DNA of 64,000 bases, taken from a virus. Taxonomy: Duplodnaviria > Caudoviricetes. The DNA lies in IMG/VR virus record IMGVR_UViG_3300010429_001449. One strand, written 5' to 3'. A program made the translations under genes and the position numbers. Positions within the stretch are counted from its first letter, which is position 1. Each line of letters opens with the position of its first letter. A model generated the notes under the pieces. The model saw nothing but the letters and a program-made list of their open reading frames with translations. It did not search any database and was not told the DNA's origin. Shown here in pieces: positions 46,507-62,810 of the stretch.

Positions 46507-48410
46507 TTCTCCACTTCCTCCACATCAACGGCCTGCGGTTGAAGCTGACGAGCACTAGAATCCATACTCATCAGGAGCGCCTTCATAGCGCTTTCCGTTG
46601 TTGCCTGTATTGATGCTAGAGCAATCGAAATTAGCTTGTCAACATTTTCTTTAGAAGAATTTTCTGTCGATTTCAGCGAGATAGCCTTGTGCCCCTTTAC
46701 GTCGTCAGTAACACGCTTGGGGCCGCTTGGCAACGCTGGCGGCTTTTTACCGCTTGGCTTCTCTCTGTCATCATCCTGCTGTTGACCGCCTTGTCCACCT
46801 TGACCACCTTGACCACCTTGACCGCCTTGTTGTTGCTGTTGCATCTGCATCAACTGCATCATACCCTCTTGTCCTTGCTTCTGGATAAGAAGGGCTGCGC
46901 CCGCCTTCATTTCCGCCAAAGCAATATCACGCGGCTTGTCGGCAAACTGGAATTCCTTTGGGAAACGAGGCTTGCCGAGCGCGTCGCGGATTTCGTTGGG
47001 CGTAATCGCGCACATCTTAGAGTACATCTCATCTACTCTAGCGCGTTCCGACGGGTCCGTAATCTGTAACCGCTCAAAACGCAGGATAACAACAGCGTCA
47101 GCACCAAGAATATCCTTCACCAAGAACTGATTGAGCATGTGCTCGATTTCGAGCCGCTCAGGTTCAAATTCTTGGTCGTTGGTCAATTCGCGGCTTGCGT
47201 ACGCCGCCGACTTGTTGACGTTTTCAGACGTGAAAAAGATACGAGCGATTCCGAATGCCTGGCGGATTTCTTCGTCGTTCGCCTCGCGGTACTTGAGGAA
47301 ACTGGCGTCCTCGGCACTCCCAACCGTGATGGGCTGTAGCTCGATCTTGGCCGATTCTTCCTTCGCAAAACCTACACGGGTCACTTCGGTCTGCAGAACC
47401 AGAACGCGGTGAGAGTTCTCCAAGCCCTGCAACTTGGCCTTCAAGAACTCCTCTATCTGCTGGATAGATTTGGAATCCAGCTTGCCGCCGGAAACGAGGA
47501 CGGCCAGTCTAGGAACAGCGTCGTTCTCGAAGAATTTGACGTTCCAAATGCCCGCCATTCGACTGCCAGAGATGGCCGGAGCCGCAGAGACGTAGCGAGG
47601 AACACCGTAGAAAGACGATGCGGGAGAATAGAGCCAAATGCGCAGGATTTCCGTAGCCTGCCGCTCCAACGGCACATTCTCAGCGTATTCTCCGGTGATA
47701 GCGTCCATCGTACGCTTGTCGCCGAACGCCTTGAAGTACCGCTTTTTGTTGCCGCGAATCTGAACAAAGCCTTCTACTCTAGTTTGCCCGGTTCTATCGT
47801 CCCGAAGCCGTCTCCGCCGCATACTGACGGTGGGCGCGTGGTAGATGTTACTGATTTCCCCGGAACGATTTCGAGTAACCTCGATGTAACCGTCGCCCAT
47901 CGCCTCTTCGTCGAACTTGACCCGATACATGACGGACGTAAAGTCCATCTCTTCGTTAGGCCGTTCCAGAATGAGACGGAGTTTCTCCGTCTGCATAACG
48001 ATCTTTTCCCGCAACTCATCCGGAATGTCAGGGGGCAAGAACGGCCCGCTGCCGGAAACGGCCATCTTCCGACGAATACTCGGGTGGACGGGAGCCGGTT
48101 CGATGTACCAACCCAAGCCTACCGTATTCCTGGCGTACGTAGAAATGCAACGGCGTAACCGCGTGCTTACTTCTGGAATTTGCGCCCACACAGCGGGGTC
48201 GTACTTGGGGACGACGTACTGACCTTTGGCCTGAACTTCAAAAGGGTCTTCAAGCTGCTTGGACCCGCCCCCGTTTTCGCCGTTGTCGTGGTAAGCCAAT
48301 TCCCTCTGAGGGAATGTGGATACCGGTACCCCTAGCTGGGTTACTTTCAGAATGGCTGCCTGCTCAGGAATCTCGTCCCTGAGCTTCAACAGAGTCTGTG
48401 CTCCGCCCAT
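46503..48410 (-). CDS. Portal protein
   Basis: D.EA.GDGYIEV.R, YH.P, YGVP, N..FFEN..VP...V.V.GG, SFLKYR, ITPNEIR..LG motifs. QGG repeat tail. Confidence 0.93.
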   Translation of the reverse strand: MGGAQTLLKLRDEIPEQAAILKVTQLGVPVSTFPQRELAYHDNGENGGGSKQLEDPFEVQAKGQYVVPKYDPAVWAQIPEVSTRLRRCISTYARNTVGLGWYIEPAPVHPSIRRKMAVSGSGPFLPPDIPDELREKIVMQTEKLRLILERPNEEMDFTSVMYRVKFDEEAMGDGYIEVTRNRSGEISNIYHAPTVSMRRRRLRDDRTGQTRVEGFVQIRGNKKRYFKAFGDKRTMDAITGEYAENVPLERQATEILRIWLYSPASSFYGVPRYVSAAPAISGSRMAGIWNVKFFENDAVPRLAVLVSGGKLDSKSIQQIEEFLKAKLQGLENSHRVLVLQTEVTRVGFAKEESAKIELQPITVGSAEDASFLKYREANDEEIRQAFGIARIFFTSENVNKSAAYASRELTNDQEFEPERLEIEHMLNQFLVKDILGADAVVILRFERLQITDPSERARVDEMYSKMCAITPNEIRDALGKPRFPKEFQFADKPRDIALAEMKAGAALLIQKQGQEGMMQLMQMQQQQQGGQGGQGGQGGQGGQQQDDDREKPSGKKPPALPSGPKRVTDDVKGHKAISLKSTENSSKENVDKLISIALASIQATTESAMKALLMSMDSSARQLQPQAVDVEEVEK

Positions 48411-48774: not shown

Positions 48775-48803
48775 ACTATACCTCACGACGCGCCCTTCGT
48801 GAA
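48775..48803 (-). promoter_or_regulatory. Possible promoter for the head operon
   Basis: TTCACG-17-TATAGT. Confidence 0.45.
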
Positions 48804-49514
48804 GTACTTTTCCACAAGAGTTTTGGCCACCATGAAAAGAAGGCCGCTGCCAAAGCCGACGCCAGCGGAAACCACGGCAATCTTGACGGTCAACTTGAAG
48901 AGTTCATTTCTGAGATCAGCCACGCTCTTTTGTACCTCGCCGACAATCTTCTCAATACCAACAAAGCGATCTTCGAGCCGCCTGCTTTTCTCTGCGCTAA
49001 GATCATCACAAACCTTTTTCTGCGCAGTGACGGCCCTAGCCGTTTTTTCTTCCGTCTGCTGCAACGTCTCTTTAACGGCGATTGCCACGGCAACCTCGAT
49101 TCTGTCTTCGCTGGCGCGGCGAACCTCTTCGTCCTGCTGTCTCCGACACGCGGCGACTCTAGCCTCACTGCGCTGCTCTCCTTCTTTGATAGCCGAATAA
49201 ATCCTGTCTATCTTTGTGTCAATATCCGCTCGAAATGCGTCCAGCTTTTTGTCAAAACGAGTCTCGAAGACCGTGACCTTTCCACCAATATCGTTCAGAG
49301 CCTCCCCGATTCGTTTGAAGGCGTCGCACGTCTCCTGATCCGCTCGTATAGCCTCGCGTTCGTCCTCGTCTTGTTTAACAATATGAGCTTCTAGCTCATC
49401 GCGCAGAGTAACAAGCGCAGCCTTCTGCTCATCATTCTGACGACTCACGTCGCGTTGCAGTAATTCGATGTTGTGTTGTATCAAGCCGCCCGCATCGGGT
49501 AAATCGTTTCCCAC
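48783..49514 (-). CDS. Coiled-coil protein with C-terminal transmembrane helix
   Basis: Long heptad repeats followed by IAVVSAGVGFGSGLLFMVA. Confidence 0.72.
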   Translation of the reverse strand: MGNDLPDAGGLIQHNIELLQRDVSRQNDEQKAALVTLRDELEAHIVKQDEDEREAIRADQETCDAFKRIGEALNDIGGKVTVFETRFDKKLDAFRADIDTKIDRIYSAIKEGEQRSEARVAACRRQQDEEVRRASEDRIEVAVAIAVKETLQQTEEKTARAVTAQKKVCDDLSAEKSRRLEDRFVGIEKIVGEVQKSVADLRNELFKLTVKIAVVSAGVGFGSGLLFMVAKTLVEKYFTKGAS

Positions 49515-49544
49515 AGATGTTGCTCCAAGACTTCATGGCCGATT

Positions 49545-49946
49545 TTAAGGTTCCTCCACGATGAGCACAGAACAGCCTTTTGTTCCAGTCTCAGCAGCTT
49601 CAATGCGATGTTCTACGTTTGGAGGAATCAATACCGCGTGGGGCGCGACAACACACCGCGCCGCCTCTCCTTTCAGTATAACATTAATAGAACCTCTGAT
49701 CAGAACTATTTCTTCCGATTTTTCGGGATGAGTGTGCCACACTTCCAAGGCTACGCGCTGATCAAACCAGAATAGCGAAATGCTGTAGTCAGAGTTGGCG
49801 TGAATCAAACGACCGCTCAGCCCACGACCGAAACAAAGAGATTCGACTTTGGTGACGGACGAAGCGCGTTCCTCGAAGCGAGTACGCACTTTACCTATGC
49901 TGGACAACGCCCGAACAACGGTAGAATCGAGAGTAGCGTCGCCCAT
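49545..49946 (-). CDS. Cupin-fold protein
   Basis: HTHPEKSEEIVLIRG...VLIPPNVEH cupin motifs. Confidence 0.8.
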   Translation of the reverse strand: MGDATLDSTVVRALSSIGKVRTRFEERASSVTKVESLCFGRGLSGRLIHANSDYSISLFWFDQRVALEVWHTHPEKSEEIVLIRGSINVILKGEAARCVVAPHAVLIPPNVEHRIEAAETGTKGCSVLIVEEP

Positions 49947-49958
49947 TGTGATCCTTCC

Positions 49959-50459
49959 TCAGAACGAAAGTGTAAAAGAGTCAAGCCAGATTGCTTCGCC
50001 ACTCTCTGTCTTGATCTGAACTTCCCACGTAACCGACCCGGAATTAACCAGATTACTGATCGCCTCAGTTACTACCTCGGTAAAGTCCACGCTGTTGATC
50101 CCGGTGATCTCACAGATCGTGGTGTTGTTCGTGGTGTCCTGAATCCTGATTGACCCATTGTCGCCCGCAGCATTGGCGGTCTTCACCAAGAAACTCGCCT
50201 TGACCGGCCATCCATCTGCGAATCCGCCGTTGTAAGTCATCGTGTAGACGGTCTGGTACACATCCGATTCGATGGCGGCGCTGTGAACATCAAAAGCCTG
50301 CGATGTTCCTGCGTGTTTTCCGTACTCTAGTAGAGTAATGCTGTCTTCGTCAATCGTGTGCGCCGCGTTATTAGGGCACACGGTGGGCACGGTAGGAGAC
50401 CAAACGTAAACCATCTTGGCCTCTGTCACACACCACAGTCTGTATTTTGCCCAGCTCAT
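49959..50459 (-). CDS. Fibre-array protein (modules F+E)
   Basis: N-terminal KYRLWC.TE...PT.CPNN..H.ID module. C-terminal domain shared with 50456-51037 (RIQDTTNN / RVYDVTNN; EVQIK / EFQVK). Confidence 0.65.
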   Translation of the reverse strand: MSWAKYRLWCVTEAKMVYVWSPTVPTVCPNNAAHTIDEDSITLLEYGKHAGTSQAFDVHSAAIESDVYQTVYTMTYNGGFADGWPVKASFLVKTANAAGDNGSIRIQDTTNNTTICEITGINSVDFTEVVTEAISNLVNSGSVTWEVQIKTESGEAIWLDSFTLSF

Positions 50460-51037
50460 TCCATGATCACCAATTTCACTGTGTCTGCGAAGATTCTGCC
50501 TTCAGCAACACTCGTCCGCTTGACCTGAAACTCGAACACGGACATGTCAGACGGCATGTTAGACAGGTCGCCGACGGCCATCACCGGGTCTGCATTATTC
50601 AGTTTGGCAGACAAGTACACTACAGCATTGTTCGTGACATCGTAGACACGAAACTTGCCTTCTACACTCGGATCAACCCAGCTAATGAACGCGCACTTAT
50701 TGGGTACTTGCTTGAAACAGTGAGGACAGTAAATGAAGCTGCCAATCTTAGTCCACACAGCGGCACTGGAGTTTACATTAGGTATATTCCAGTTGACTAC
50801 CGTAGTAACCGGCTTGGGCGTGGAGTCTCCTGAAGGAAGTGCCGCGACTATTCCATCAAGATCGGCCTCTTGCTCCTGTGTAAGCTCCACCAAGAACATG
50901 ACAGAGAGAATCTCAGTGTCGTCAGACCAAGATGATCCTGCGTAATCCTCTATATTCAAGAGTTCGCTGTTGATTATATCCTGTCTCAACTTGTAGAAGT
51001 CAGGCTCTTGCGCTTTGGAATAATCGTATTGAGTCAT
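50456..51037 (-). CDS. Fibre-array protein (modules D+E)
   Basis: N-terminal PD...L..DI...Y.G..W.D...Q.A.L...VAAL shared with 53563-54210. Confidence 0.65.
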   Translation of the reverse strand: MTQYDYSKAQEPDFYKLRQDIINSELLNIEDYAGSSWSDDTEILSVMFLVELTQEQEADLDGIVAALPSGDSTPKPVTTVVNWNIPNVNSSAAVWTKIGSFIYCPHCFKQVPNKCAFISWVDPSVEGKFRVYDVTNNAVVYLSAKLNNADPVMAVGDLSNMPSDMSVFEFQVKRTSVAEGRIFADTVKLVIME

Positions 51038-51048
51038 TCAACCCTCCG

Positions 51049-52020
51049 TCAAAGCTGTGTTACTCTCATGGCAATTATTCTAGCCCGGCGTATGTACGCC
51101 GTGTAGGAGCCACTTAATGACTTGTACTGCAATCTCATGCTCTGCGCGGCAGAGATGCCGGGTCTCAGAGAAACTCCGCTGATTGGAACAAAGCCTTCGT
51201 TGCCGTCGCTACTCCGCGAGAAGTCGAACTCCTCTACGCCACGCGCTTCCTCAAACGATGTATTATTCTCTAAGAGTCTCCAGCCGACACCGGAAGAGGA
51301 TGAACTGTTCACTGCTATCTCGGCGGACCAGAATACGAAGTAGTCGCCAGAAGACGGGGGCGTGAAATCCAGTTGAGCCTTAGTCTGAAAACTCGTTGAC
51401 GACGTGCTTGACTCTCCTACGCTGGATGTAAAATAAAGCTGTGGCGATGTATATATCGACCCGGCACTGTCAGGCTGGAACGATACCGAAAGCAGACTTC
51501 CAGAGACTGTCCAGTCTACCCCCGCGCCGATATTCAGGGACAAATTAGGGCTAGTAGGCGAAGTCTTAGTCAGAATCCCTGTGGCTGGATTAGATGCGGC
51601 GAGGTAAAAATCAGCACCCACATCAGTGTTGGCAAAGCCTGAGACCTGCGTGTTTCTACCGGACGTGTAGACCTTCCCTGTAGAACCACTGGGTACTGAG
51701 GCAAGGACAAATCCGTGCGCGATCTTTATTCCAGCGGCATTCGACGCAGTAGCATACTGCATCTCGACCCGTGACTGTGCCACGTTGTACGTCAGATAAA
51801 CGTATCTGCCCGCCGCGATAGGCGCTCCTGTGTTGTTGTACGCTGAAATCTCAGAAGTGCCGGGAGGAACTAACGACGGCGAAAGACGCCCGTCTGCGCC
51901 CGCAGCGAGCAGACGACCTGCGTCCCCTGTGCCCGGAGTCGTAGAACCGTCCACGGCAGTCTGCACAACGCGGTCAGGAGTCGGGGTCGTTTGGATTTGT
52001 TCGTATTGGTCGCCTGCCAT
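51049..52020 (-). CDS. Fibre-array protein (modules A+B+C)
   Basis: AGRLLA.G.DGRL..SL.P, AHGFVL, and C-terminal AYIRRARI. Confidence 0.68.
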   Translation of the reverse strand: MAGDQYEQIQTTPTPDRVVQTAVDGSTTPGTGDAGRLLAAGADGRLSPSLVPPGTSEISAYNNTGAPIAAGRYVYLTYNVAQSRVEMQYATASNAAGIKIAHGFVLASVPSGSTGKVYTSGRNTQVSGFANTDVGADFYLAASNPATGILTKTSPTSPNLSLNIGAGVDWTVSGSLLSVSFQPDSAGSIYTSPQLYFTSSVGESSTSSTSFQTKAQLDFTPPSSGDYFVFWSAEIAVNSSSSSGVGWRLLENNTSFEEARGVEEFDFSRSSDGNEGFVPISGVSLRPGISAAQSMRLQYKSLSGSYTAYIRRARIIAMRVTQL

Positions 52021-52964
52021 TATCCTACCCTCTCAGCAATCAAACTAGAGCGAGTGATCGTACCTGCCGAGGCTACGTTCGTTCCTGTGATGACAAGCGT
52101 ATAAGCATAGGCAACGCCCGCCGTCAATGACCGCCTGACGGCGAACGAGAAAGTGCTCGTCAAGTTGATTTGCGCTCCTATCCGATGAAGGATAGTCGCT
52201 CCTTCGTAACCGTAGAACTGGACTTGAGCGGCAGTGCCTCCTGTTCTTAGCACTTCTCCGTTCCCAATGATCGTGTACTCTCCAGTCAGGTAAGGAGTAA
52301 TGTTCAACGTCACAGCCGTGGTAGACCCTACACCAGCTACGGGCACAGACGCGGTGTTGGAGACGGAGTGCTTCTCCTTGAACGAAAACTGGTTGAACAA
52401 CACCTTAGCAGCGCCTGCGTTGACATCGTAGATATGGCCGACAGGTTGAACAACGCAGTCAGCCGTGTGTGTCACGCCCGCGACGTTGTTTCCCGTCGTG
52501 TCGCTGTCCGGCGGTGTGTAATCGCACTTGCCCGCGTTCCCGCTTTCGGCAAGCCAGAGGAGCTTTCCTCGATCCGCAACCGCAAAGCCACCGCCAGTGT
52601 GAATGGCGTAAGGATTCAGACCAAAGGTGTAAACATTGGCGGAGCCGGGGAACACCGGGGTGTCGAGAACAAAGCCGTGCGCCAGCTTGACTACCCCGCC
52701 AGAAAGAGTCGAGTCCGCTTTGCGGACATTCAAAACGCCGCCATTGTTGTAGAGGTTGACCCACTGACCCTGAGTCAACGCCTCAGACATAGGAACCAAA
52801 AGAGGACCGGTAGCTTGAGACGGCAGGAGTGTGGCTGACAGTAATCCGTTGGCATCGAGGGCGACGAGCTTTCCGTTGTCACCCGCGCCTGAGTAGGTTG
52901 TTATCCCCTCGCGGGCTTTTTGCTCGCCGTTCGACAAGTCTTGCAGTATGTAACGGTCAGCCAT
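52020..52964 (-). CDS. Fibre-array protein (modules A+B plus C-like domain)
   Basis: GKLVALDANGLL..TLLP, SEAL..G.WVN.Y...VRKAD, AHGFVL. Confidence 0.68.
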   Translation of the reverse strand: MADRYILQDLSNGEQKAREGITTYSGAGDNGKLVALDANGLLSATLLPSQATGPLLVPMSEALTQGQWVNLYNNGGVLNVRKADSTLSGGVVKLAHGFVLDTPVFPGSANVYTFGLNPYAIHTGGGFAVADRGKLLWLAESGNAGKCDYTPPDSDTTGNNVAGVTHTADCVVQPVGHIYDVNAGAAKVLFNQFSFKEKHSVSNTASVPVAGVGSTTAVTLNITPYLTGEYTIIGNGEVLRTGGTAAQVQFYGYEGATILHRIGAQINLTSTFSFAVRRSLTAGVAYAYTLVITGTNVASAGTITRSSLIAERVG

Positions 52965-52970
52965 AACAAG

Positions 52971-53549
52971 CTACTCTACTTCTATCGGCTCCTGTGGGAG
53001 AAACGCTACCTTAGCAGGTGAGCCAGAGGCGTCCGTCAGAATTCCTACCTTCTGGAGAAGGTACGGTGTGCCCAACGCAGTAACTTCCGTAACATCAGTC
53101 GTCCCTTTGCCTTCAAAACCGCCACCGCCATACAAGTAGACGTACTTGCCTTCAAACGACTGATCCAGATCAGCCTCATCAGCCTTACTGTTCTCTCCGT
53201 CTATGTAGATATCCGCAGTACCGGCTGGCCCTGGAACCGGACCAGCAACAGCGGCCAAGATGTAACCATTGCACGGCTTAGTCGGGTCAGAAGCGTCCGC
53301 CTTCTCAACTTCTCTTGTGCCTACATTGTCGTAGAAGTGGACAAAATCTCCAGCGAGCAAATCCTCTACAGCTACAGCTTGAACGGTCTCAACACCGCCG
53401 GGAAGCAACGATGCGTCAACCAGACCGCTCGCATTTAGTCCTACGACCTCGCCTGCACTGGCGCTCACGCTAGATGTGCGCGGCGTGCTCCACTTCTGAC
53501 CACCGTTTGCGGGGTCAATCGTTAGAAATCTTGTTTTGTCACCGGCCAT
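52971..53549 (-). CDS. Fibre-array protein (modules A+B)
   Basis: GEVVGLNASGLVD.SLLP, E.L.AGDFV..Y...V.KADA, NGYIL. Confidence 0.68.
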   Translation of the reverse strand: MAGDKTRFLTIDPANGGQKWSTPRTSSVSASAGEVVGLNASGLVDASLLPGGVETVQAVAVEDLLAGDFVHFYDNVGTREVEKADASDPTKPCNGYILAAVAGPVPGPAGTADIYIDGENSKADEADLDQSFEGKYVYLYGGGGFEGKGTTDVTEVTALGTPYLLQKVGILTDASGSPAKVAFLPQEPIEVE

Positions 53550-53562
53550 ACGTCAACTCCTT

Positions 53563-54210
53563 TCAACTCTCAACCAACGCAGGTCTTGCTGGCGCGAACT
53601 CTATCGTAGCGCGTCCGCCCGCAATAACCAAGTCAATCAATTTGCCCAACACCTGAATGATGTTGTCGGCGCTGGTATCCGGCGCTGTCACCGCCGCGCC
53701 CGCCGTCGTGGACAGAAACATGTCCGATCCAACATCGGCTAGAACAAGAGCGGTGCCGTCAACCAACGGATTCTGTCCTTCAAAGTGAACTCTGACCTGA
53801 CTGCCAATCAAAACGCTGTCAAGAACGAAGCCGTCTGCGGGACGCTCGCCCGGCGTTACCGTATCCGCGTTGGCCTTCCTTACGGAACGGACGCCTGCAT
53901 TGTCGTAGATGTTGACGAACTCTCCCGCGTTCAAATTCTCGCCAGCTACAAAAAGTGTTTCGTCGGAGTAGCCTGTTGCCAGCGCCGCGATCACCGCTGT
54001 GAGCGCAGCCTGCTGCCCCATCGGTCCTACGGTCAGTGCCGCCGCCCACTGCGTCGTGAGAACGGCGGGCGTTGCGTCGTCCCAGTAGGCTCCTTCGTAG
54101 TTGCCAAAAACAGGCGCAAGCGTGGCGTCAGCCGCAATGTCCTTCTCCAACTGATGGAGATCAGGCTGTGTTGGCGACCCTGGCCAAGGATTAGGGTAAG
54201 TAACCGACAC
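53563..54210 (-). CDS. Fibre-array protein (modules D+B)
   Basis: D module, then AGE.L.AGEFVNIY...VRKANA...ADGFVL...FLSTTAG. Confidence 0.68.
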   Translation of the reverse strand: MSVTYPNPWPGSPTQPDLHQLEKDIAADATLAPVFGNYEGAYWDDATPAVLTTQWAAALTVGPMGQQAALTAVIAALATGYSDETLFVAGENLNAGEFVNIYDNAGVRSVRKANADTVTPGERPADGFVLDSVLIGSQVRVHFEGQNPLVDGTALVLADVGSDMFLSTTAGAAVTAPDTSADNIIQVLGKLIDLVIAGGRATIEFAPARPALVES

Positions 54211-54224
54211 GCTGAGCTACCTCG

Positions 54225-54776
54225 TTACGGAGCATCTACCTGAATTATGCCTATCCGCGCTCTGCGGATGTACGCTGTGCCTGCAACACCGGGACGATTC
54301 ACGTCCAACAGGACGGTGTACGGCCCCGGCACGATGATGTCAAACGCCTTGAACACGGCTTGGCCAACCCATCCCGTGGGATAGGTCGAACCGAATGTCC
54401 GCATGTCCACCTCTCCGAAGATCGGAGGCAACAACAACGGCATGTGCAGCCTGACGCCGACCCGCCCAGCCGGATTCGTTTGAGAGAGTTCGCAGTAACT
54501 CCAAAGGAAAAAGGAGCCTTCGGGCATCAACGGAATGACCAGGCTCAGCTTGTTTACCCATCCGGGCGGAATTACCGTCGTAGACAATTCGCCTTCGCTT
54601 TCGGCGTAGTAGTAAGAGAGGTCTTGGACTGCGGGGAGCAAAGAAGGATCGATTTTGCCCGTCGCCGCCAATGCAACCAGCTTGCCAGCATCACCAATGC
54701 CTGAGAAGGTAACAATACCTTCACGAGCCTTCTTAGTGCTGGTCGCAAGATCAACTCTTACGTATCTGTCTGCCAT
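54225..54776 (-). CDS. Fibre-array protein (modules A+C)
   Basis: GKLVAL..TGKID.SLLP, then YYAESEGE.ST...AYIRRARI. Confidence 0.68.
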   Translation of the reverse strand: MADRYVRVDLATSTKKAREGIVTFSGIGDAGKLVALAATGKIDPSLLPAVQDLSYYYAESEGELSTTVIPPGWVNKLSLVIPLMPEGSFFLWSYCELSQTNPAGRVGVRLHMPLLLPPIFGEVDMRTFGSTYPTGWVGQAVFKAFDIIVPGPYTVLLDVNRPGVAGTAYIRRARIGIIQVDAP

Positions 54777-54778
54777 GC

Positions 54779-55384
54779 CTATTCGAGAAGAATCTCGTCT
54801 CCGGGCATGAAGTCAACCGAAACAGTCAAACCAACTGCGTCTATGTAGCCGAGGTCTTCCACCAAATCGCCTACCGCGTACGCCGAAAGATCGTCCGTCA
54901 TCTCTCCAGCCGTCTTTGACAAGTAAACGCGCTTCCCCAAATCGGCTGCAACCCACGCTCCGAGCGGAACTTGCGTATTGATACCGTCTGTGTAAACGTC
55001 GACGTACCAATTGCCGCCTGCGGGGGGAATTTCCTGCGGAGTATCTACGATATAGCCGTTGGCGGGATAAGGCGTCGGACCGCTCGCATTGGCCCTGCGC
55101 ACTTCCGGCGTTCCTGCGCTGTCGTAGACGTGAACCCAGTGTCCTTTGATCAGGAAACCAACCTCGGCGGCGCGGACGTGAACCGCAGCGATAATCGTTG
55201 GACCAACGCCGGGAGGAAGCAATGTCGGGCTGAGCCGAGGCAGGCCAAGAACGGTGTCCAGACCCACGACCTCGCCCGCTTCCTCGCTGCCGTCCGCAGC
55301 CGTGCGCGGAGTGCCTCTTATGCGCTTGCCTAAATCCACGCCAGTCAGCGGGACAGCGATGAAAGATTTCTTGTCTTCAGACAC
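54779..55384 (-). CDS. Fibre-array protein (modules A+B)
   Basis: GEVVGLD...L..TLLP, VRRANA, ANGYI, YLSKTAG. Confidence 0.68.
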   Translation of the reverse strand: MSEDKKSFIAVPLTGVDLGKRIRGTPRTAADGSEEAGEVVGLDTVLGLPRLSPTLLPPGVGPTIIAAVHVRAAEVGFLIKGHWVHVYDSAGTPEVRRANASGPTPYPANGYIVDTPQEIPPAGGNWYVDVYTDGINTQVPLGAWVAADLGKRVYLSKTAGEMTDDLSAYAVGDLVEDLGYIDAVGLTVSVDFMPGDEILLE

Positions 55385-55953
55385 TACGAGGGAACCTCAA
55401 CCGGTTGATCCGGAATGAAATCGGCTGCGGAAGGCGTCGGAGCGACGTTCTGCTCAATGACAAAACCCACGACTTGAATGATGTAAGGCGTTCCTAACGC
55501 GATAACATCGTTCAAATCCGTCGTGGCCTTGCCGAGTTGGCAGAGGTAAAGAGGAAGGCCGTCGTCGGTCGCGCCTATGTCGGTGGAATCAACCTTGTCA
55601 TTAACGCCGTCCGTGTAGACTTTGGCGGTTTGAGTTATCAGCCAGTTCTCTAGCACGTAACCATTGGCAAACTTGTCTGGATCATCCGCACTGGCGCGGC
55701 GTACTCGCGTGGCTCCTGCGCCGCCGTCGTGATAGACGTTGACGTAATCGCCCTCCGAAAGACCTTCTGATGCTTCGATACTGCGGTAGCCCGTGCTGGA
55801 GGGAAGCAACGTAGAATCAATGACGCCTGCGCCGTTCAAACCAACGACATCGCCAGGCTGTTCGCTGCCATCGGCTACCGTAACAGGGGTAGTCAACGCA
55901 TCAAGGCCGTTGGCTGCGTCTATCGTCCAGAATGTCTTTTTTCCGACCGCCAA
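55384..55953 (-). CDS. Fibre-array protein (modules A+B)
   Basis: GDVVGLNGAGVID.TLLP, ASEGL..GDYVNVY, VRRA.A, ANGYVL. Confidence 0.68.
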   Translation of the reverse strand: MAVGKKTFWTIDAANGLDALTTPVTVADGSEQPGDVVGLNGAGVIDSTLLPSSTGYRSIEASEGLSEGDYVNVYHDGGAGATRVRRASADDPDKFANGYVLENWLITQTAKVYTDGVNDKVDSTDIGATDDGLPLYLCQLGKATTDLNDVIALGTPYIIQVVGFVIEQNVAPTPSAADFIPDQPVEVPS

Positions 55954-55983
55954 AGCAAACCCTCCGTACCAGCCTTTTTCATC

Positions 55984-58071
55984 CTACTCAACCCGCTCGG
56001 CGTTGGCAAGACAAAAACGAGACAACTCGACTGCTTCCTGAACGATTTGCGGCAGCGGCCACGTGACCGGCGCAACAATACCGTCAGGACACGGGCCTAG
56101 TTTTCCGTCCCAACCTTCCCAAGCGAGACGCCTATCGGCGGGCGCGTTGTCTCTCGCCTCGTAGAAGGAGTGTTTGGCCCGCATCAAGCCGCTGCTCAAG
56201 CAGTGACCCAGATGATAGATCATCGTGTACGGGTTAGCCTCCTGCGCCGCCCTCGCGCTCGTGTAAGTGTGCAGATGATTACCGGCGGCATCTACCGGAC
56301 TGTGGTGAACACGCCAGCGGTAGGAAGGACGCCACCACGAAAAACGGTAATGAGAACAGACACTGCCTACTCCCAGCGAGCCGCCCCATCGAGTACCGTC
56401 CGGTTCGGCGTCGTGAATCCAAAAGTCGCCTGTGTGCCACAGATTAATCCATCTCGGACAGGCAAAAGCCGCCTGCCAGTACTCAAGACCGACCCAAATC
56501 TCGTCCGCATCGAGAACAAGCTGGTAGTTACCCGTGATTCTAGCGGCGAGCGACGCCCGCATCTCGCGTTTGTCGACCCAGACAGGACGCGCATCTATCT
56601 TGATCTTGTGTTCCGGGTCAGGCAACGCCCGCAACTGTTCCAAAACGCCGTTTTCGGGAGAGCCTCTGTAAAGCTCTACGGGGCCGTAGGCAATGAGAAT
56701 CTCGTGGACATGAGGATAGACCGCTTCGACGGCTTTTGTGGCCGTAGGCGTGCCGTAACATATCATACAGGCGGATATCTTGCGCGTTTGGAGTGAATGA
56801 TACGGCAGCCGTTCTACCGCTTTCTGCATCGCGCCCAGTCCGTAGGTCTCCACCACCCAGCGACTAGACTCCGCCAAGTCGGGCTTAGGTTTCGCCGCAA
56901 GTTTCTTGACCTTGCGAACGAAGGCTTTCTCGTTTCCCCACGGAACATAATGCAACCGATCTCCGTAAGCCCACCGGAGGACAGGGAGATCATAAACTAC
57001 GACCTGCGTTCCAGCAGCCAGAGACTCCGCCGGAACCATACCGAATCCCTCAAAGAGAGACGGAGCCAAAACCATGTGCGCGTGCCGCATCGCGTCGTAC
57101 TTCACGGAATCAGGGAAATTCTTCAGGCTGTGCCATTTGTGTAAGTCGGTATCTACTGGGACACTGCCGGGATCGCCAAAAGTAACCAGATCGAAGGGCA
57201 TCTTCAGCGAGTAAACGGCGTCAAAAGCAAGCCCGGCGCACTTGTAATCCGTGTTGCGTGCGCTCCAGAGCGCGTAAGGCCGTTCCGGAGGCTGCCAAGA
57301 ACACGGTTGATGCAGCGCGTAGTCATTTACAGCAGGAACCAGATAGTCGTAGAGACGCTCCGCGCCTGTCTCGCCCATCCACTCTCGACAATACCGCATG
57401 GATAACTCAGAGCAGCCCAACAACAGATCAGAGGCGCTGTAACCCTCTCTGGTGTGCGTAGTGTTCATCAAGTCGGCGACACGAGGAACATAGTTGCGCA
57501 CCCAATTCTCCGTCTCGAAATTCAGACAAACAAGTTTACAGCCTGGATGCGCCGCCTTGTAAGCCGCCGCCTGTAACCCCAAGCCGCCTTTCGAGTCAGT
57601 CATGCAGATGTCCAAGTCGGGCGGAATCTGGTCTTTGCCGTTGATCAGGAATTTCAGACGATTGCACACCGGATAATCCGTCACCCATCTCGGAACGGCG
57701 TTGGTGATGAAAAATACGTCCGCGCCAAGCTGAGCACAACTCAGGGCGTACTGATAGACCAGAAGTCTTCCGCCGGAATAGTGCGTGCTTGTCCACAGCC
57801 AACAACCAATACGCAACGTCCTAGCCAGCGGAGCGGCGGCGTTATTCATATTGACAGGCGGTTTGACTGGACGGCGGGAACTGGTACAACGTAACGGCAG
57901 ATTGTTGGATTTCTGCGGTCTGGCGTAATCAACAAAGCCGTTGAATATCAACGACTCTACCGTATCACTGGCTGCGTTGAAAATGCGCCCCGGCCTAGCA
58001 TAACGCTGAGTACCGCGAGCGTCGTAATAGTGAAATCCTCGCAAGACGCGAACTGGTATAACCGCCGCCAA
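55984..58071 (-). CDS. Bifunctional glycosyltransferase (GT4-like GT-B plus GT2-like GT-A)
   Basis: YSGGR, LAPSLFEGFGMVPAE.LA.G..VV.YDLPVL (GT4). ISACMI...LVLDADE (GT2 DxD). Confidence 0.85.
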   Translation of the reverse strand: MAAVIPVRVLRGFHYYDARGTQRYARPGRIFNAASDTVESLIFNGFVDYARPQKSNNLPLRCTSSRRPVKPPVNMNNAAAPLARTLRIGCWLWTSTHYSGGRLLVYQYALSCAQLGADVFFITNAVPRWVTDYPVCNRLKFLINGKDQIPPDLDICMTDSKGGLGLQAAAYKAAHPGCKLVCLNFETENWVRNYVPRVADLMNTTHTREGYSASDLLLGCSELSMRYCREWMGETGAERLYDYLVPAVNDYALHQPCSWQPPERPYALWSARNTDYKCAGLAFDAVYSLKMPFDLVTFGDPGSVPVDTDLHKWHSLKNFPDSVKYDAMRHAHMVLAPSLFEGFGMVPAESLAAGTQVVVYDLPVLRWAYGDRLHYVPWGNEKAFVRKVKKLAAKPKPDLAESSRWVVETYGLGAMQKAVERLPYHSLQTRKISACMICYGTPTATKAVEAVYPHVHEILIAYGPVELYRGSPENGVLEQLRALPDPEHKIKIDARPVWVDKREMRASLAARITGNYQLVLDADEIWVGLEYWQAAFACPRWINLWHTGDFWIHDAEPDGTRWGGSLGVGSVCSHYRFSWWRPSYRWRVHHSPVDAAGNHLHTYTSARAAQEANPYTMIYHLGHCLSSGLMRAKHSFYEARDNAPADRRLAWEGWDGKLGPCPDGIVAPVTWPLPQIVQEAVELSRFCLANAERVE

Positions 58072-58101
58072 GTCTCGTCCCTACCTTTCTCGCGGCTAGG
58101 A

Positions 58102-58425
58102 TCATGATGGATTCTCTTTGTGCCACGCCGCTAAAGCCATCGCATGAATGTCCGCTCCGACTGGATCGGCGTTTATCGCCACTTCTTCATCAGGATAAAC
58201 ACAGGCGATAGCGGGAGTGCCCGTTTCAGGCAAAATGCCTTCCTGCTTCATTATGATGAGGTCCGCGAGCGTCGACGCACGCGCTTCTGTCGTTATTTTC
58301 AGCGAGAAGGAGTTGGGAGAATGGTTCTGGTCAATAGATACTTCTCCATCCTTCAGGATTCGATACCCCCAACCGCCTGTCCACGGGGGCTGTGTCACCT
58401 GATACACCTGCTTTGTCAGTGCCAT
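58102..58425 (-). CDS. DUF4907-like small protein
   Basis: GWGY.I..DG...I.Q...P....T.E.A...A.L...K pattern. Confidence 0.55.
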   Translation of the reverse strand: MALTKQVYQVTQPPWTGGWGYRILKDGEVSIDQNHSPNSFSLKITTEARASTLADLIIMKQEGILPETGTPAIACVYPDEEVAINADPVGADIHAMALAAWHKENPS

Positions 58426-58427
58426 CG

Positions 58428-58757
58428 CTATGCTCCGAACGGTAGTTTGAAGTGAGCCGCGCAAGAGGCTCTCTCTTCATCATCTGCTACTTTAGCCGCC
58501 GCAGCCATAGTAGCCGGGTCTACTCCATCGGGATCAGAGAGTATCTGATTCTGCTCCAATAGAGTAACGGTCAACATCAAACCAAGATTTACCTTGCCAA
58601 GGAGTAGGTCAGCGAAGATATTTGCGATCTGTTCCGTTGTTATGTCACCCACAGAGCACGGGAGACGTGTTTGTAACAGACGGCTGAAACCGTCTTCGAG
58701 TAGTTCGTAGCTCCACTTGCCGGGGCTTATCTCAGCGATGTTCTTTGTCCAGGCCAT
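58428..58757 (-). CDS. DUF4907-like small protein (paralog)
   Basis: WSYELLEDG...Q..LP...ITTEQIA..FADL...K, similar to its neighbour. Confidence 0.5.
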   Translation of the reverse strand: MAWTKNIAEISPGKWSYELLEDGFSRLLQTRLPCSVGDITTEQIANIFADLLLGKVNLGLMLTVTLLEQNQILSDPDGVDPATMAAAAKVADDEERASCAAHFKLPFGA

Positions 58758-59959
58758 TAGGGTTTCTCGTACAGATAGAAGCCTTCGGGTGTCACAACAG
58801 GAGCAAGCAGCGGAACAAAACTCACTACATCCTGCCCGACATTGGAAAAGCCATTGATTAACGCATTGCCAAGCAGGTATATCCGACCGTTGAACTCAAC
58901 CGCGCTTCCGTCTGCGAAGGGATACCACCAACTCTGGCGAGACCGTCCGTAATCACCACGGTCGTACAATGGAGGCAGCAAAGACAACCAACCATCTCCC
59001 TCGGAACCGGCAGAGTATCCACCCGCGATGATGATATGGTCGTTATAAACCAACGCGGTCGCTCTTCGCGCAAACAGGAGATAGGGCAGGACGGGTATCC
59101 TCGTATCCCATTCAATTCCATCAACGGTAGTGCGTACAGCAAGCGGACTGACCTGCCCCATACCCGCATAAATCTGAGTACCGTCAGTCCACGTAATCGG
59201 CTGCAAGAAGTCGAAGGGCAAGGTCGGTAGTGTTGTCCACGTCGCTCCTACCGTAGCTCCAAAATCGGTGCGCTTGACCAACCGTTGATTGTTTCTTCCG
59301 CCGAAAGTCCACAAAGCGTTGTTGAAAACGACCGTGCCGGACTCGATCAGATTAGTGCCCTCAGTGAGGGATACCTGCGCCCATGTCGGAGGATTCATCG
59401 GATTTCCGTCCCACGACATCAACCAAACATCGGTAGGGTCTGGAAGCGCGTGCCCTAAATCACGTCCTCCTGCGATAAGAACCTTGTCGTCTGTACCATC
59501 ATTCACGATGCCACAGACGTAATGACTTCTGTGCTGCCACGGACCAGCACCAACGAGTGTCCAGTTCACGCCATCAAGAGACATCCACGTATCGTCGAGT
59601 GACACTCCTACGAAGGGGTCGTAACCGCCAAACAGCCACAGTGCGCCCTTGAACGACACGGCTGTAAACGACTCCCTGCCGGACCACGGAGCAATCGGAA
59701 CATCAACTCGGGCGTCGGTGCATTCTGTGTAATTCTGGACGGGGACATAGCCCTCTGCCGCGAGATATGTATTCGGATAGATGTCGGAGAGCCGGTAACT
59801 TCCTGCTCCTAATCCTGAGCCTCCTGCTGCCTCCATACGCACAAATGCGAGTTCCCACCGAACCTTCTCATCATCCATCTCATCGACGAGATTGTTCTGA
59901 TAGGGCTGGTCGCCCGGCTGGTACATCTGTGACCGTCTTGGGAGTATGATGTCGCTCAT
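58757..59959 (-). CDS. Kelch-like beta-propeller protein, paralog 3
   Basis: F.G.LW..GG...D.W.S.DG..W repeats. Conserved ILPRRS and EGFYLYEKP termini. Confidence 0.8.
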   Translation of the reverse strand: MSDIILPRRSQMYQPGDQPYQNNLVDEMDDEKVRWELAFVRMEAAGGSGLGAGSYRLSDIYPNTYLAAEGYVPVQNYTECTDARVDVPIAPWSGRESFTAVSFKGALWLFGGYDPFVGVSLDDTWMSLDGVNWTLVGAGPWQHRSHYVCGIVNDGTDDKVLIAGGRDLGHALPDPTDVWLMSWDGNPMNPPTWAQVSLTEGTNLIESGTVVFNNALWTFGGRNNQRLVKRTDFGATVGATWTTLPTLPFDFLQPITWTDGTQIYAGMGQVSPLAVRTTVDGIEWDTRIPVLPYLLFARRATALVYNDHIIIAGGYSAGSEGDGWLSLLPPLYDRGDYGRSRQSWWYPFADGSAVEFNGRIYLLGNALINGFSNVGQDVVSFVPLLAPVVTPEGFYLYEKP

Positions 59960-62405: not shown

Positions 62406-62436
62406 CGCAGTCCTCCTTTGTTGCGGGAAAATTGCC

Positions 62437-62475
62437 TTCTACGCGGCGGTCACGAGTGTAACACGCCGCGTAGAA
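62437..62475 (-). promoter_or_regulatory. 12-bp stem-loop enclosing an extended -10-like motif
   Basis: TTCTACGCGGCG / CGCCGCGTAGAA arms with TGTTACACT inside. Confidence 0.55.
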
Positions 62476-62499
62476 AGGTATCCACATCAACAAAAAGAA

Positions 62500-62742: not shown

Positions 62743-62810
62743 CGTCTATCTCCTTGTTTACAAAGGGAGTATGTGTGTGTGCAAACAGCGCGTGACGTTC
62801 CGCAGCTTGC

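What the first reader, a model, noticed from the sequence alone, without database searches (positions are those of the whole stretch)
49959..55953. Nine-gene combinatorial array of shuffled fibre/cement modules upstream of the portal
Seen: in transcription order the architectures are A+B, A+B, A+C, D+B, A+B, A+B+C-like, A+B+C, D+E, F+E. A = G.VV.L...G..D..LLP; B = E.L..G..V..Y...VR.A.A...A.G[FY]VL; C = ..ES.GE.ST...AYIRRARI; D = PD...L..DI...Q.A.L...AAL; E = R..D.TNN...E.Q.K. Every gene shares a module with another, and B also ends tail protein 7501-8751. Inference: a branched or heteromeric appendage (head fibre or collar) built by module-to-module docking, analogous to branched receptor-binding systems but not one I recognise as described.
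Basis: partly seen in the sequence, partly recalled or inferred. Interest (0 to 1): 0.72.

Follow-up and report, generated by a model that had tools for sequence, protein, structure and literature searches.

The report
Expanded bead-chain virion fibre gene array
Nine neighbouring genes of an uncultured 145-kb sludge phage are real mix-and-match paralogs of the "bead" protein that forms the bead-chain neck fibres of cyanophage A-1(L), so they most likely build modular beaded fibres on the virion: a much enlarged version of a fibre type described in 2024, not a new kind.

Summary
The nine genes and their shared modules are real. Shuffle tests and an external family profile confirm A in six genes, B in six, D in two and E in two. 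C is solid only between g3 and g7. The claimed B copy in tail protein 7501-8751 is not supported.

A+B is a large unnamed phage family (2,612 cluster representatives). Its one characterised member is gp81 of Anabaena phage A-1(L), the trimeric bead that polymerises head-to-tail between anchor gp82 and tip gp80. The window matches that grammar:
- g4 (D+B) looks like an initiator.
- g1, g2 and g5 (A+B) look like extenders.
- g3, g6 and g7 (A with or without B, plus an extra C-terminal domain) look like caps.
- g8 and g9 carry a carbohydrate-binding-module/TNF-like jelly roll.

B has the fold of trimeric capsid decoration proteins.

A closer relative keeps g1-g6 in the same order. More distant relatives lack the whole block.

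Verdict: a heteromeric appendage built by module docking is supported by homology. "Branched" and "undescribed" are not. It is a new, unusually expanded variant of a known kind. Virion presence is untested.

By sequence, the scan has not noted this family on other DNA. It has noted a different "beads-on-a-rope" fibre type elsewhere.

The parts
55384..55953 (-). g1, 189 aa, A+B: predicted chain-extender bead
   Evidence: External family profile E 1.3e-38 over A+B. 37% identical to A-1(L) gp81, E 2e-15. Ortholog h1 in L041 is 74% identical.
54779..55384 (-). g2, 201 aa, A+B: predicted chain-extender bead
   Evidence: Profile E 2.4e-33. Ortholog h2 in L041 is 58% identical. Its A falls in the extender clade.
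54225..54776 (-). g3, 183 aa, A+C: predicted chain cap (docking N-terminus, no bead)
   Evidence: The profile hits only positions 2-50, E 1.4e-10. A is 59% identical to g6 A. C is related to g7 C, hhalign P 5e-5. Ortholog h3 is 79% identical. Atlas leads to Pgp3/C1q-like clusters are weak.
53563..54210 (-). g4, 215 aa, D+B: predicted initiator/anchor (non-A N-terminal domain plus acceptor bead), analogous to gp82
   Evidence: The profile hits B only, positions 56-171, E 2.3e-32. D is shared with g8 (E 4.5e-5, z 10.8). Ortholog P0022/h4 is about 70% identical (71% in the pairwise alignment, 69% by BLASTP) with the same D+B architecture. A-1(L) gp82 149-240 matches the B profile, E(Z=1) 3.6e-5.
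52971..53549 (-). g5, 192 aa, A+B: predicted chain-extender bead
   Evidence: 38% identical to A-1(L) gp81, E 7.8e-18. It was the seed of the family search that gave 2,612 representatives.
52020..52964 (-). g6, 314 aa, A+B plus a 120-aa C-terminal domain (C-like): predicted bead with tip
   Evidence: Profile E 3.4e-36 over A+B. The C-terminal domain is only marginally like g7 C (P 0.024). Ortholog h6 is 52% identical over the full length.
51049..52020 (-). g7, 323 aa, A+B+C: predicted bead with tip
   Evidence: Profile E 1.2e-27. AF2 model: A is a beta-hairpin (5-21, pLDDT about 80), B pLDDT about 96, C about 50. B matches trimeric capsid decoration proteins at Z 10-10.9.
50456..51037 (-). g8, 193 aa, D+E: D-type N-terminal domain joined directly to a CBM/TNF-like jelly roll
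   Evidence: AF2 pLDDT 71. E (78-193) matches CBMs at Z 10.8-9.6, Pgp3 C-domain at Z 9.7 and a TNF-like lectin at Z 9.4. The word-based search found no homologs other than itself.
49959..50459 (-). g9, 166 aa, F+E: a second E-type jelly roll behind a unique 45-aa Cys/His-containing N-terminus
   Evidence: E is shared with g8 (z 7.1). L041 keeps only its C-terminal 63 aa, out of frame.
49545..49946 (-). Context only: cupin-domain gene directly downstream, kept next to the array in the relative L041
   Evidence: Pfam Cupin_2 6.2e-5, below the curated cut-off. L041 homolog is 46% identical. Not shown to belong to the fibre.
55984..58071 (-). Context only: 695-aa glycosyltransferase directly upstream of g1
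   Evidence: Pfam Glycos_transf_1 1e-7, phrog_2170. Any role in modifying the fibres is conjecture.

Best explanation
The array most likely encodes the parts list of modular 'bead-chain' virion fibres of the type reconstituted for Anabaena myophage A-1(L).

Module roles:
- B is a globular bead with the fold of trimeric capsid decoration proteins. Trimer formation is inferred from that fold and from gp81.
- A is an N-terminal beta-hairpin plus a G.VV.L...G..D..LLP segment. It docks onto the free face of the preceding bead trimer.

The inferred assembly grammar follows:
- g4 (D+B) has no A but offers an acceptor bead, so it starts a chain and fixes it to the particle through D.
- g1, g2 and g5 (A+B) both dock and accept, so they extend the chain.
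- g3 (A+C) docks but offers no bead, so it caps the chain. g6 and g7 (A+B+C) probably also cap it.
- The caps present a distal beta-rich domain.
- g8 (D+E) puts a carbohydrate-binding-module/TNF-like jelly roll directly on the same anchor type.
- g9 (F+E) is a second such tip with another N-terminus.

The fibres probably serve reversible binding to glycans on cells or matrix.

Shown here: the paralogy, the module boundaries, homology to gp81, the folds of B and E, and conservation of gene order in a relative.

Inferred: trimer state, docking, role assignment, position on the virion, and ligand.
For: Family size and composition:
- 2,612 representatives at E<=1e-3 and 1,449 at E<=1e-10.
- 141 of the 169 proteins then held (essentially the 150 best representatives) are simple A+B proteins of about 170 aa.
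- PHROG 4368 and 12121, both of unknown function.

Link to the characterised system:
- A family member is 43% identical to A-1(L) A1L_81, which the record annotates as 'neck fiber protein'.
- gp81 versus g5, g6, g1, g4: E 8e-18 to 3e-15. Versus g3 (A only): 2e-5.
- PMC10966104 reports that gp82, gp81 and gp80 are in virions by mass spectrometry. Co-expressed, they form bead-chain fibres at about 1:14:1. The gp81 N-terminal hairpins bind gp82C, and a 6-A map fits gp82C plus two gp81 trimers.
- gp82C matches the B profile at E(Z=1) 3.6e-5 over nearly the full length, so gp82 is X+B like g4.

Structure:
- The AF2 model of g7 shows an N-terminal hairpin and a confident B domain.
- E is a CBM/TNF-like jelly roll at Z about 10, like the CBM tip reported for gp80.

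Grammar elsewhere:
- X+B lies just upstream of A+B, or A+X just downstream, in several IMG/VR loci.
- The same holds in Kochitakasuvirus and in an N4-like roseophage.
- In Kochitakasuvirus the cassette follows the gene of the 15-fold collar protein (PDB 26dk_M; PMC13730344).

Conservation and sub-structure:
- L041 keeps orthologs of g1-g6 in the same order and with the same architectures.
- The A tree splits extender-type (g1, g2, g5) from cap-type (g3, g6, g7).
- g4-g5-g6 is colinear with gp82-gp81-gp80.
Against: - There is no virion, expression or assembly data for this phage. Only RNA-library contigs identical to parts of the array exist, and they may be DNA carry-over.
- D shows no similarity to gp82N, and C and E show none to gp80.
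- No homolog of the A-1(L) gp5 adaptor or the A1002 gp33 collar was found by BLAST, so the attachment site is unknown.
- The C fold is unresolved (pLDDT about 50).
- B's nearest solved folds are capsid-bound decoration proteins.
- Docking of A on B rests on one paper's AlphaFold models and a 6-A map. It was not modelled here.
- Distant relatives lack the whole block, so it is accessory.
Confidence: 0.6

Rival explanations
1. The A+B proteins are capsid decoration/cement proteins or short head fibres, like the phi29 gp8.5 base. B trimers would sit on three-fold or quasi-three-fold capsid positions, with A acting as the N-terminal arm that binds the capsid. The paralogs would fill non-equivalent sites of a large capsid, and C and E would project as head-fibre knobs.
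For: - B (55-184) aligns nearly end to end with trimeric decoration proteins: FCWL1 (Z 10.9), HFTV1 (10.5), T1 (10.4) and Pam3 (10.0).
- It also aligns with the phi29 head-fibre base (Z 8.3; Foldseek TM 0.65).
- The array lies in the head-gene arm, upstream of the portal and capsid genes.
- A few family members hit 'head decoration' PHROGs weakly.
- Depositors named the YongM and YongM2 homologs 'capsid fiber' and 'head decoration protein D'.
Against: - Sequence identity to decoration proteins is only 10-18%. Identity to the fibre bead gp81 is 36-41% for g1, g4, g5 and g6 (25-27% for g2 and g7), with E down to 1e-18.
- gp81 was shown to form chains off the capsid. By the authors' account the A-1(L) capsid is made of gp4, and no decoration protein was named in the passages read.
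- A decoration model does not explain D+B and A+C proteins, or tandem-A and B+B variants.
- No Pfam decoration family is matched.
Confidence: 0.2
2. The array is a set of alternative tail or baseplate-associated receptor-binding fibres. This would be a multi-RBP host-range system in which the paralogs attach to the tail rather than to the neck or head.
For: - In BFVD the B fold occurs inside many long proteins named tail-fibre-like, collagen-repeat, Mtd-N or chaperone-autoprocessing fibre proteins (E 1e-7 to 1e-6).
- E is CBM/TNF-like, as in many receptor-binding tips.
- One relative, G002, carries B-like domains about 22 kb downstream of its capsid gene.
- L038 has B inside a 2,083-aa protein.
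Against: - The array is about 40 kb from the window's tail-fibre and baseplate genes (5-14 kb) and next to head genes.
- No module copy is found in any tail protein of this genome.
- The homologous A-1(L) fibre sits on the neck, and its tip did not bind host cells.
Confidence: 0.12
3. The genes are non-structural accessory genes, for example secreted or intracellular lectin-like factors, that merely reuse fibre folds.
For: - The whole 48.8-63.1 kb block is absent from more distant relatives.
- It sits with enzymes: a glycosyltransferase, a cupin and a HAD.
- There is no direct virion evidence.
Against: - Every characterised or annotated relative is a virion protein.
- The nearest solved folds of B are virion proteins; E's nearest folds are mostly bacterial carbohydrate-binding modules, with a few virion knobs among them.
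- The genes are co-oriented with and embedded in the late structural arm.
Confidence: 0.04

Closest known systems
Bead-chain neck fibre of Anabaena myophage A-1(L): gp82 anchor, about 14 gp81 trimers, gp80 tip (Nat Commun 2024, PMC10966104)
   Same: - g1, g2, g5, g6 and g7 (A+B), g4 (B) and g3 (A) are sequence homologs of gp81.
- The gene grammar is the same: X+B initiator, A+B bead, capped tip.
- The genes form one operon.
- There is an N-terminal hairpin plus a globular bead.
- gp82C is a diverged B.
   Different: - Nine genes instead of three.
- Three extender paralogs, three cap types and two further tip proteins.
- The caps carry a clear A module, which gp80 does not detectably have.
- The anchor domain D is unrelated to gp82N, and the tip domains are unrelated to gp80.
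- No gp5-like pentadecameric adaptor was detected.
- The host phage is unrelated to A-1(L): only the sheath and tube are distantly similar.
Trimeric capsid decoration (cement) proteins and the phi29 head-fibre gp8.5 base
   Same: The fold of B: Z 8.3-10.9 with 110-125 aligned residues covering almost the whole domain. Foldseek probability is 1.0.
   Different: - 10-18% identity and no shared Pfam family.
- The closest sequence relative forms free chains rather than binding capsid three-fold sites.
- There is no coiled-coil stalk as in gp8.5.
Chain-like 'beads-on-a-rope' fibres of podophages GP4, VP1 and A1002 (PDB 8JOU; PLoS Biol 2026, PMC13730344)
   Same: Beaded accessory fibres made of many copies of small subunits. 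A1002 uses two bead proteins in one fibre, which is a precedent for hetero-bead chains.
   Different: - Those beads are dimers that beta-augment onto a separate rope protein with tandem docking sites. Here there is no rope-like repeat gene, and docking is bead to bead.
- No sequence hit to any PDB chain.
- Kochitakasuvirus genomes (the genus that includes A1002; shown here for CRPAP1904) also carry a gp82-like plus gp81-like cassette beside the gene of the collar protein, whose product was not resolved in the A1002 map.
Branched multi-RBP systems (for example CBA120- or G7C-type tailspike complexes; from my own knowledge, not tested here)
   Same: Several paralogous proteins share conserved N-terminal docking modules and have variable distal domains.
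   Different: Those systems are tail-attached tailspikes that dock through dedicated adaptor domains to form a branch. Here the evidence points to linear head-to-tail polymerisation of beads.

Membership tests
A-1(L)-type bead-chain neck fibre | Bead subunit homologous to gp81 (N-terminal beta-hairpin plus globular bead domain) | tested here: met
   BLASTP of gp81 against g5, g6, g1, g4, g2 and g7 gives 8e-18 to 6e-7. The g7 model has a hairpin at 5-21 and a B domain with pLDDT 96.
A-1(L)-type bead-chain neck fibre | Initiator protein with a non-bead N-terminal anchor and a bead-like C-terminal acceptor domain (gp82 architecture) | tested here: met
   g4 is D (1-84) plus B (85-215). This architecture is conserved in P0022/h4. 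gp82 149-240 matches the B profile at E(Z=1) 3.6e-5.
A-1(L)-type bead-chain neck fibre | Anchor domain homologous to gp82N | tested here: not met
   hhalign of the D profile against the gp82N profile gives P 0.81. A structural comparison of D alone was not done.
A-1(L)-type bead-chain neck fibre | Distal cap protein with a larger carbohydrate-binding-type domain (gp80) | tested here: inconclusive
   g3, g6 and g7 carry extra C-terminal domains, but the C model is poor (pLDDT about 50) and shows no similarity to gp80. E is CBM/TNF-like (Z about 10), but it sits on D or F, not on A.
A-1(L)-type bead-chain neck fibre | Components encoded together in one operon | tested here: met
   Nine co-oriented ORFs with gaps of -4 to +14 nt. 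No internal promoter or terminator signal stands above background.
A-1(L)-type bead-chain neck fibre | Head-to-tail docking of the N-terminal hairpins of one trimer on the preceding bead trimer | not testable with these tools
   No multimer prediction is available. This rests on PMC10966104.
A-1(L)-type bead-chain neck fibre | Presence in virions, attached to a 15-fold neck adaptor or collar | tested here: inconclusive
   No BLAST homolog of A-1(L) gp5 or A1002 gp33 in the 144.8-kb record. Such proteins diverge beyond BLAST range. There are no proteomic data.
Trimeric capsid decoration proteins / phi29 gp8.5 base | Shared fold of the core domain | tested here: met
   Z 10.9 (9kmg_b, 115 aa, rmsd 2.7), 10.5 (8qsy), 10.4 (9kzj), 8.3 (6qyy).
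Trimeric capsid decoration proteins / phi29 gp8.5 base | Sequence-family membership (Pfam or PHROG decoration families) | tested here: not met
   No Pfam family at E<=1 for the nine proteins or at E<=0.1 for 47 family members beyond scattered chance hits. Only 2 of 47 touch a 'head decoration' PHROG, at 0.003.
Trimeric capsid decoration proteins / phi29 gp8.5 base | Binding at capsid three-fold or quasi-three-fold positions | not testable with these tools
   This needs a capsid reconstruction.
GP4/A1002-type beads-on-a-rope fibre | Separate rope protein with tandem docking repeats | tested here: not met
   All nine proteins are accounted for by modules A-F. TRF finds no repeat array in 46-64 kb except the portal's GGQ tract. 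Diverged protein repeats outside this range were not searched.
GP4/A1002-type beads-on-a-rope fibre | Bead homologous to GP4 gp80 / A1002 gp40-41 | tested here: inconclusive
   The family profile finds no PDB chain at a meaningful E-value. 8JOU is not among the listed Foldseek or VIA matches.

The most novel reading that the evidence does not exclude
The array may be a combinatorial assembly code. One anchor type (D) would serve two sub-types of docking module: extender-type A in g1, g2 and g5, and cap-type A in g3, g6 and g7. These, with several bead types, would let a single phage build several distinct hetero-polymeric fibres, or block-ordered chains whose length is set by competition between extenders and caps. 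Each fibre would end in a different glycan-binding tip. Recombination between paralogs would generate new combinations: the B of g7 groups with the B of h5, while their A modules do not group together.
Probability: 0.3. Interest if true: 0.7.

Novelty: new variant of a known kind. Interest (0 to 1): 0.5.

Why it matters
Bead-chain fibres are known from one structural study of one cyanophage group. This work shows three things:
- The bead belongs to a very large unnamed phage family (thousands of sequence clusters) found across myophages, N4-like phages and KPP25-like podophages.
- The initiator-extender-cap grammar can be read from sequence.
- One uncultured sludge phage has expanded the usual one to three detectable family genes into seven, within a nine-gene set that is conserved in order in a relative. 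In the 84 other loci sampled, the most found was four.

If the grammar holds, it gives a simple, testable self-assembly code for hetero-polymeric protein fibres, which could be useful for protein-fibre engineering. It would also explain why many phages carry unexplained genes of about 170 aa next to collar or neck genes, including in the recently solved phage A1002, where that product was not resolved.

Tried and rejected
- Pfam and PHROG scans of the nine proteins gave nothing usable.
- The word-based homolog search found one homolog for g5, and only the proteins themselves for g8 and for the C domain of g7.
The portal query found nothing in viral contigs.
I therefore could not inspect the 269-kb contig that carries identical proteins or the contexts of metagenomic homologs.
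- 'B ends tail protein 7501-8751' is rejected at the sequence level. Two short colinear matches (258-300 and 394-415) score about 0 bits.
- C versus E, and C or E versus A-1(L) gp80: no relation.
- D versus gp82N: none.
- A-1(L) gp5 adaptor and A1002 gp33 collar: no BLAST hit in the genome.
- Promoter and terminator scan: not above the shuffled background.
- No tRNAs in the window.
- No rope-like tandem repeats.
- RNA-library contigs identical to parts of g1/g2, g3, g4, g5 and g7 exist in two activated-sludge metatranscriptome studies. They are contigs only and could be DNA carry-over, so they are not counted as proof of expression. Uncovered parts mean nothing.
- The habitat reading (anaerobic digester, activated sludge) rests on two runs holding 79-100% of the sampled words and one holding 34%. 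The first of these may be the source sample.

Full report
**What is there.** The window is the minus strand of bases 20839-84838 of a 144.8-kb IMG/VR virus record (the CheckV completeness estimate of 83% is). All long ORFs run on the minus strand.

Between a 695-aa glycosyltransferase (55984-58071) and a cupin gene (49545-49946) lie nine ORFs, packed with gaps of -4 to +14 nt:

| gene | coordinates | length (aa) |
|---|---|---|
| g1 | 55384-55953 | 189 |
| g2 | 54779-55384 | 201 |
| g3 | 54225-54776 | 183 |
| g4 | 53563-54210 | 215 |
| g5 | 52971-53549 | 192 |
| g6 | 52020-52964 | 314 |
| g7 | 51049-52020 | 323 |
| g8 | 50456-51037 | 193 |
| g9 | 49959-50459 | 166 |

Downstream follow the cupin gene, a 243-aa gene, a 108-aa gene, the portal (46503-48410; Pfam Phage_portal 3e-27) and the major capsid protein (42627-43997). 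The nearest portals among cultured phages are only 30% identical.

**Are the modules real?** Yes, for the most part.
- BLASTP: g1-g5 3.8e-33 over the full length, g1-g2 1e-15, g3-g6 5.6e-15 over the first 49 residues only, g4-g8 4.5e-5 over the first 80 residues, g8-g9 0.011.
- Smith-Waterman scores against 500 shuffles: z up to 26.6 for A, 3.4-33.8 for B (14 of 15 pairs above 6), 10.8 for D, 7.1 for E. Cross-module controls give z below 2.
- An independent test used a profile of g5 plus 46 metagenomic homologs. In the phage's own genome it finds exactly seven places. These are g5, g1, g6, g2 and g7 over A+B, g4 over positions 56-171 only (B), and g3 over positions 2-50 only (A).

Module C is weaker. 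g3 and g7 are related (z 4.3; hhalign P 5e-5 over 53 columns, plus the shared AYIRRARI end). g6-g7 is marginal (P 0.024), and g3-g6 is not detectable.

The statement that B also ends tail protein 7501-8751 fails. There is no hit at E<=1, HMM scores are at most 1.3 bits, and no other copy of any module exists in the genome.

**What family is it?** Pfam and PHROG scans of the nine proteins are empty. An exhaustive profile search, however, finds 2,612 cluster representatives at E<=1e-3 and 1,449 at E<=1e-10.
- Of the 169 proteins then held (essentially the 150 best representatives), 141 are simple A+B proteins of about 170 aa. The rest include A+A+B, A×6+B, B+B and one D+B protein.
- Most members match the unnamed phrog_4368 and phrog_12121. 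None has a solved structure by sequence search.
- A typical member hits 64 cultured phage genomes. These include N4-like roseophages, KPP25-like Pseudomonas podophages, Stenotrophomonas phages and the Anabaena/Nostoc myophages A-1(L), N-1, Elbi and YongM.
- In the re-annotated A-1(L) genome the hit is A1L_81. It is flanked by A1L_82 and A1L_80, and all three are called 'neck fiber protein'.

**The characterised relative.** Yu et al. (Nat Commun 2024, PMC10966104) reported the following:
- gp80, gp81 and gp82 are virion proteins.
- Five fibres of about 100 nm emanate from a pentadecameric neck protein, gp5.
- The gp82 N-domain binds gp5.
- Co-expressed gp82-gp81-gp80 self-assembles into bead-chain fibres at roughly 1:14:1 trimers.
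- gp81 and gp82C are similar globular trimers.
- gp80 is a larger distal bead with a carbohydrate-binding module.

Direct comparison gives gp81 versus g5 7.8e-18, g6 2.1e-17, g1 2e-15, g4 (B only) 2.9e-15, g2 1.9e-10, g7 6.4e-7 and g3 (A only) 2.2e-5. gp82 residues 149-240 match the family B profile at E(Z=1) 3.6e-5. gp82 is therefore 'anchor + B', exactly like g4.

**Structure.**
- The AlphaFold2 model of g7 (54-row alignment) has an N-terminal beta-hairpin (5-10 and 16-21, pLDDT about 80), a confident B domain (pLDDT about 96) and an unresolved C (about 50).
- B aligns almost end to end with trimeric capsid decoration proteins (FCWL1 Z 10.9, HFTV1 10.5, T1 10.4, Pam3 10.0), with the phi29 head-fibre base (Z 8.3) and, more distantly, with gpD (5.3).
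- In BFVD the same fold is embedded in many long fibre proteins.
- The g8 model (pLDDT 71) has a small alpha/beta D domain and an eight-stranded E sandwich. E matches carbohydrate-binding modules (Z 10.8-9.6), the Pgp3 C-domain (9.7) and a TNF-like lectin (9.4). This is a fold-class assignment, not a family assignment.
- Atlas leads for g3 (Pgp3- and C1q-carrying clusters at 0.87-0.88) are weak.

**Comparison across genomes.** A 7.7-kb metagenome contig (L041; portal 79% identical) carries the same array in the same order:

| L041 gene | architecture | window counterpart | identity |
|---|---|---|---|
| h1 | A+B | g1 | 74% |
| h2 | A+B | g2 | 58% |
| h3 | A+C | g3 | 79% |
| h4 | D+B | g4 | 69% |
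| h5 | A+B | g5 | 37% |
| h6 | A+B+C | g6 | 52% |

These are followed by the cupin, the 243-aa gene, the 108-aa gene and the portal.

Its seventh gene keeps the A and the first half of the B of g7. It then runs, out of frame, into the last 63 codons of a g9-like E domain. Relative to the window, the distal half of g7, all of g8 and most of g9 are missing there.

More distant relatives (capsid 62-68% identical by tblastn) have the HAD gene homolog (window 63182-63790) sitting almost next to the 108-aa gene and the portal. The whole 48.8-63.1 kb block is therefore accessory in this lineage. Four of five large relatives have no family member at all.

Among 84 IMG/VR loci centred on family members, 74 show one detectable family gene, nine show two and one shows four. 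With seven family genes plus two partners, this array is the largest seen. Several two-gene loci show X+B immediately upstream of A+B, or A+X immediately downstream. The same order (gp82-like, gp81-like, then a tip candidate) is found in a Kochitakasuvirus and in an N4-like Sulfitobacter phage.

In the Kochitakasuvirus the cassette directly follows a 197-aa gene whose product matches PDB chain 26dk_M over its full length (E 6e-130). By length and genus I take that chain to be the 15-fold collar gp33 of phage A1002. This is a second, independent association of the cassette with a 15-fold neck structure.

**Module trees.**
- The orthologous pairs g1/h1, g2/h2, g4/h4 and g6/h6 are strongly supported.
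- A splits, with moderate support (90/86 and 81/80), into an extender-type clade (g1, g2, g5 and h1, h2, h5) and a cap-type clade (g3, g6, g7 and h3, h6, h7).
- The B of g7 groups with the B of h5 (83/91), whereas the A of g7 groups with the A of h7 (97/91). This suggests recombination between paralogs.

**How it most likely works.** By homology, B trimers are beads and A is the plug that docks on the free face of the previous bead.
- A protein with B but no A (g4) can only start a chain.
- Proteins with both (g1, g2, g5) extend it.
- A protein with A but no B (g3) can only end it.
- g6 and g7 add a bead that already carries its own tip.
- The sub-string g4-g5-g6 is colinear with gp82-gp81-gp80.
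- D, shared by g4 and g8, would be the particle-binding anchor, and g8 would be a stub that puts a CBM-like tip directly on that anchor.
- g9 is unexplained beyond sharing the tip.

The paralogy, boundaries, homology and folds are shown. The oligomeric state, docking, roles, location and ligand are inferred. I put 0.6 on this reading.

The main rival (0.2) is that the A+B trimers bind the capsid, like the decoration proteins they resemble in fold. A tail-attached receptor-binding set (0.12) and a non-virion role (0.04) are less likely.

**Other evidence.** The phage DNA occurs in anaerobic-digester and activated-sludge metagenomes. Contigs from two metatranscriptome studies are identical to pieces of g1/g2, g3, g4, g5, g7, the cupin and the glycosyltransferase. 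That is only a hint of transcription.

**Comparison with the known, and verdict.** The finding is a member of the gp81 bead family and follows the A-1(L) fibre grammar. It differs in several ways:
- its anchor and tip domains are unrelated to those of A-1(L);
- its caps carry a clear A module;
- it has far more components.

It is not the GP4/A1002 'beads-on-a-rope' type: there is no rope gene and no sequence hit to any PDB chain. Other notes of this scan describe rope-type fibres on other genomes. By sequence, no look-alike of this family was noted elsewhere.

I rate it a new variant of a known kind, with interest 0.5. The appendage type is published, however, and nothing here shows branching.

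Noticed in passing
window 48783-63164: The whole block is absent from more distant relatives (L003, L024, L029). The block holds the 243-aa gene, the cupin, the nine-gene array, the glycosyltransferase, two small genes and three Kelch-repeat genes. In those relatives the HAD homolog lies 0.5-0.9 kb from the 108-aa gene and the portal. The block behaves as an accessory insertion.
   Followed up: partly
L041 4062-4720: In the syntenic relative, the g7 ortholog keeps A and half of B. It then continues out of frame into the last 63 codons of a g9-like E domain. This is either a deletion scar removing the distal half of g7, all of g8 and the proximal part of g9, or an assembly or frameshift error.
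   Followed up: partly
L039 3732-5516 (Pseudomonas phage CRPAP1904): The 197-aa gene matches PDB chain 26dk_M over its full length (E 5.8e-130), which I take to be the 15-fold collar gp33 of A1002. It is followed by a 225-aa gene whose C-terminus resembles A-1(L) gp82C, and then by a 171-aa gp81 homolog. The A1002 paper left a 'bonding protein' and flexible density at the collar unassigned. A bead-chain fibre may be attached there.
   Followed up: partly
metagenomic proteins P0020, P0084, P0128, P0011, P0014, P0018; L038 6206-12454: Family variants exist with 2-6 tandem A segments of about 30 aa before one B, with two B domains in one chain, and with a B domain inside a 2,083-aa protein.
   Followed up: no
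window 7501-8751 (N-terminal 100 aa): A-1(L) gp80 residues 5-102 show weak similarity to residues 7-104 of this tail protein (E 0.006 against a 19-protein database). It is unconfirmed.
   Followed up: no
whole record (proteins P0001, P0005, P0169): Proteins identical to g5, g7 and g8 are recorded on 3-5 contigs, the longest being 269,027 bases. The real genome may be larger than the 144.8-kb record (CheckV 83%), or that contig may be a concatemer.
   Followed up: no
L030 229-1779 (relative G002, about 22 kb downstream of its capsid gene): Two adjacent ORFs (354 and 162 aa) carry partial B-like domains (E 1e-5 and 2e-13). They have no homolog in this phage's genome.
   Followed up: partly
L033 2671-7177 (Nostoc phage YongM): The neck-fibre cassette there holds a second bead paralog (207 aa). 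A 627-aa PhoD-like phosphatase gene is inserted between the paralog and the gp81 ortholog.
   Followed up: no
window 46782-46830: A 9-nt tandem repeat encodes the GGQ repeats in the C-terminal tail of the portal protein.
   Followed up: no
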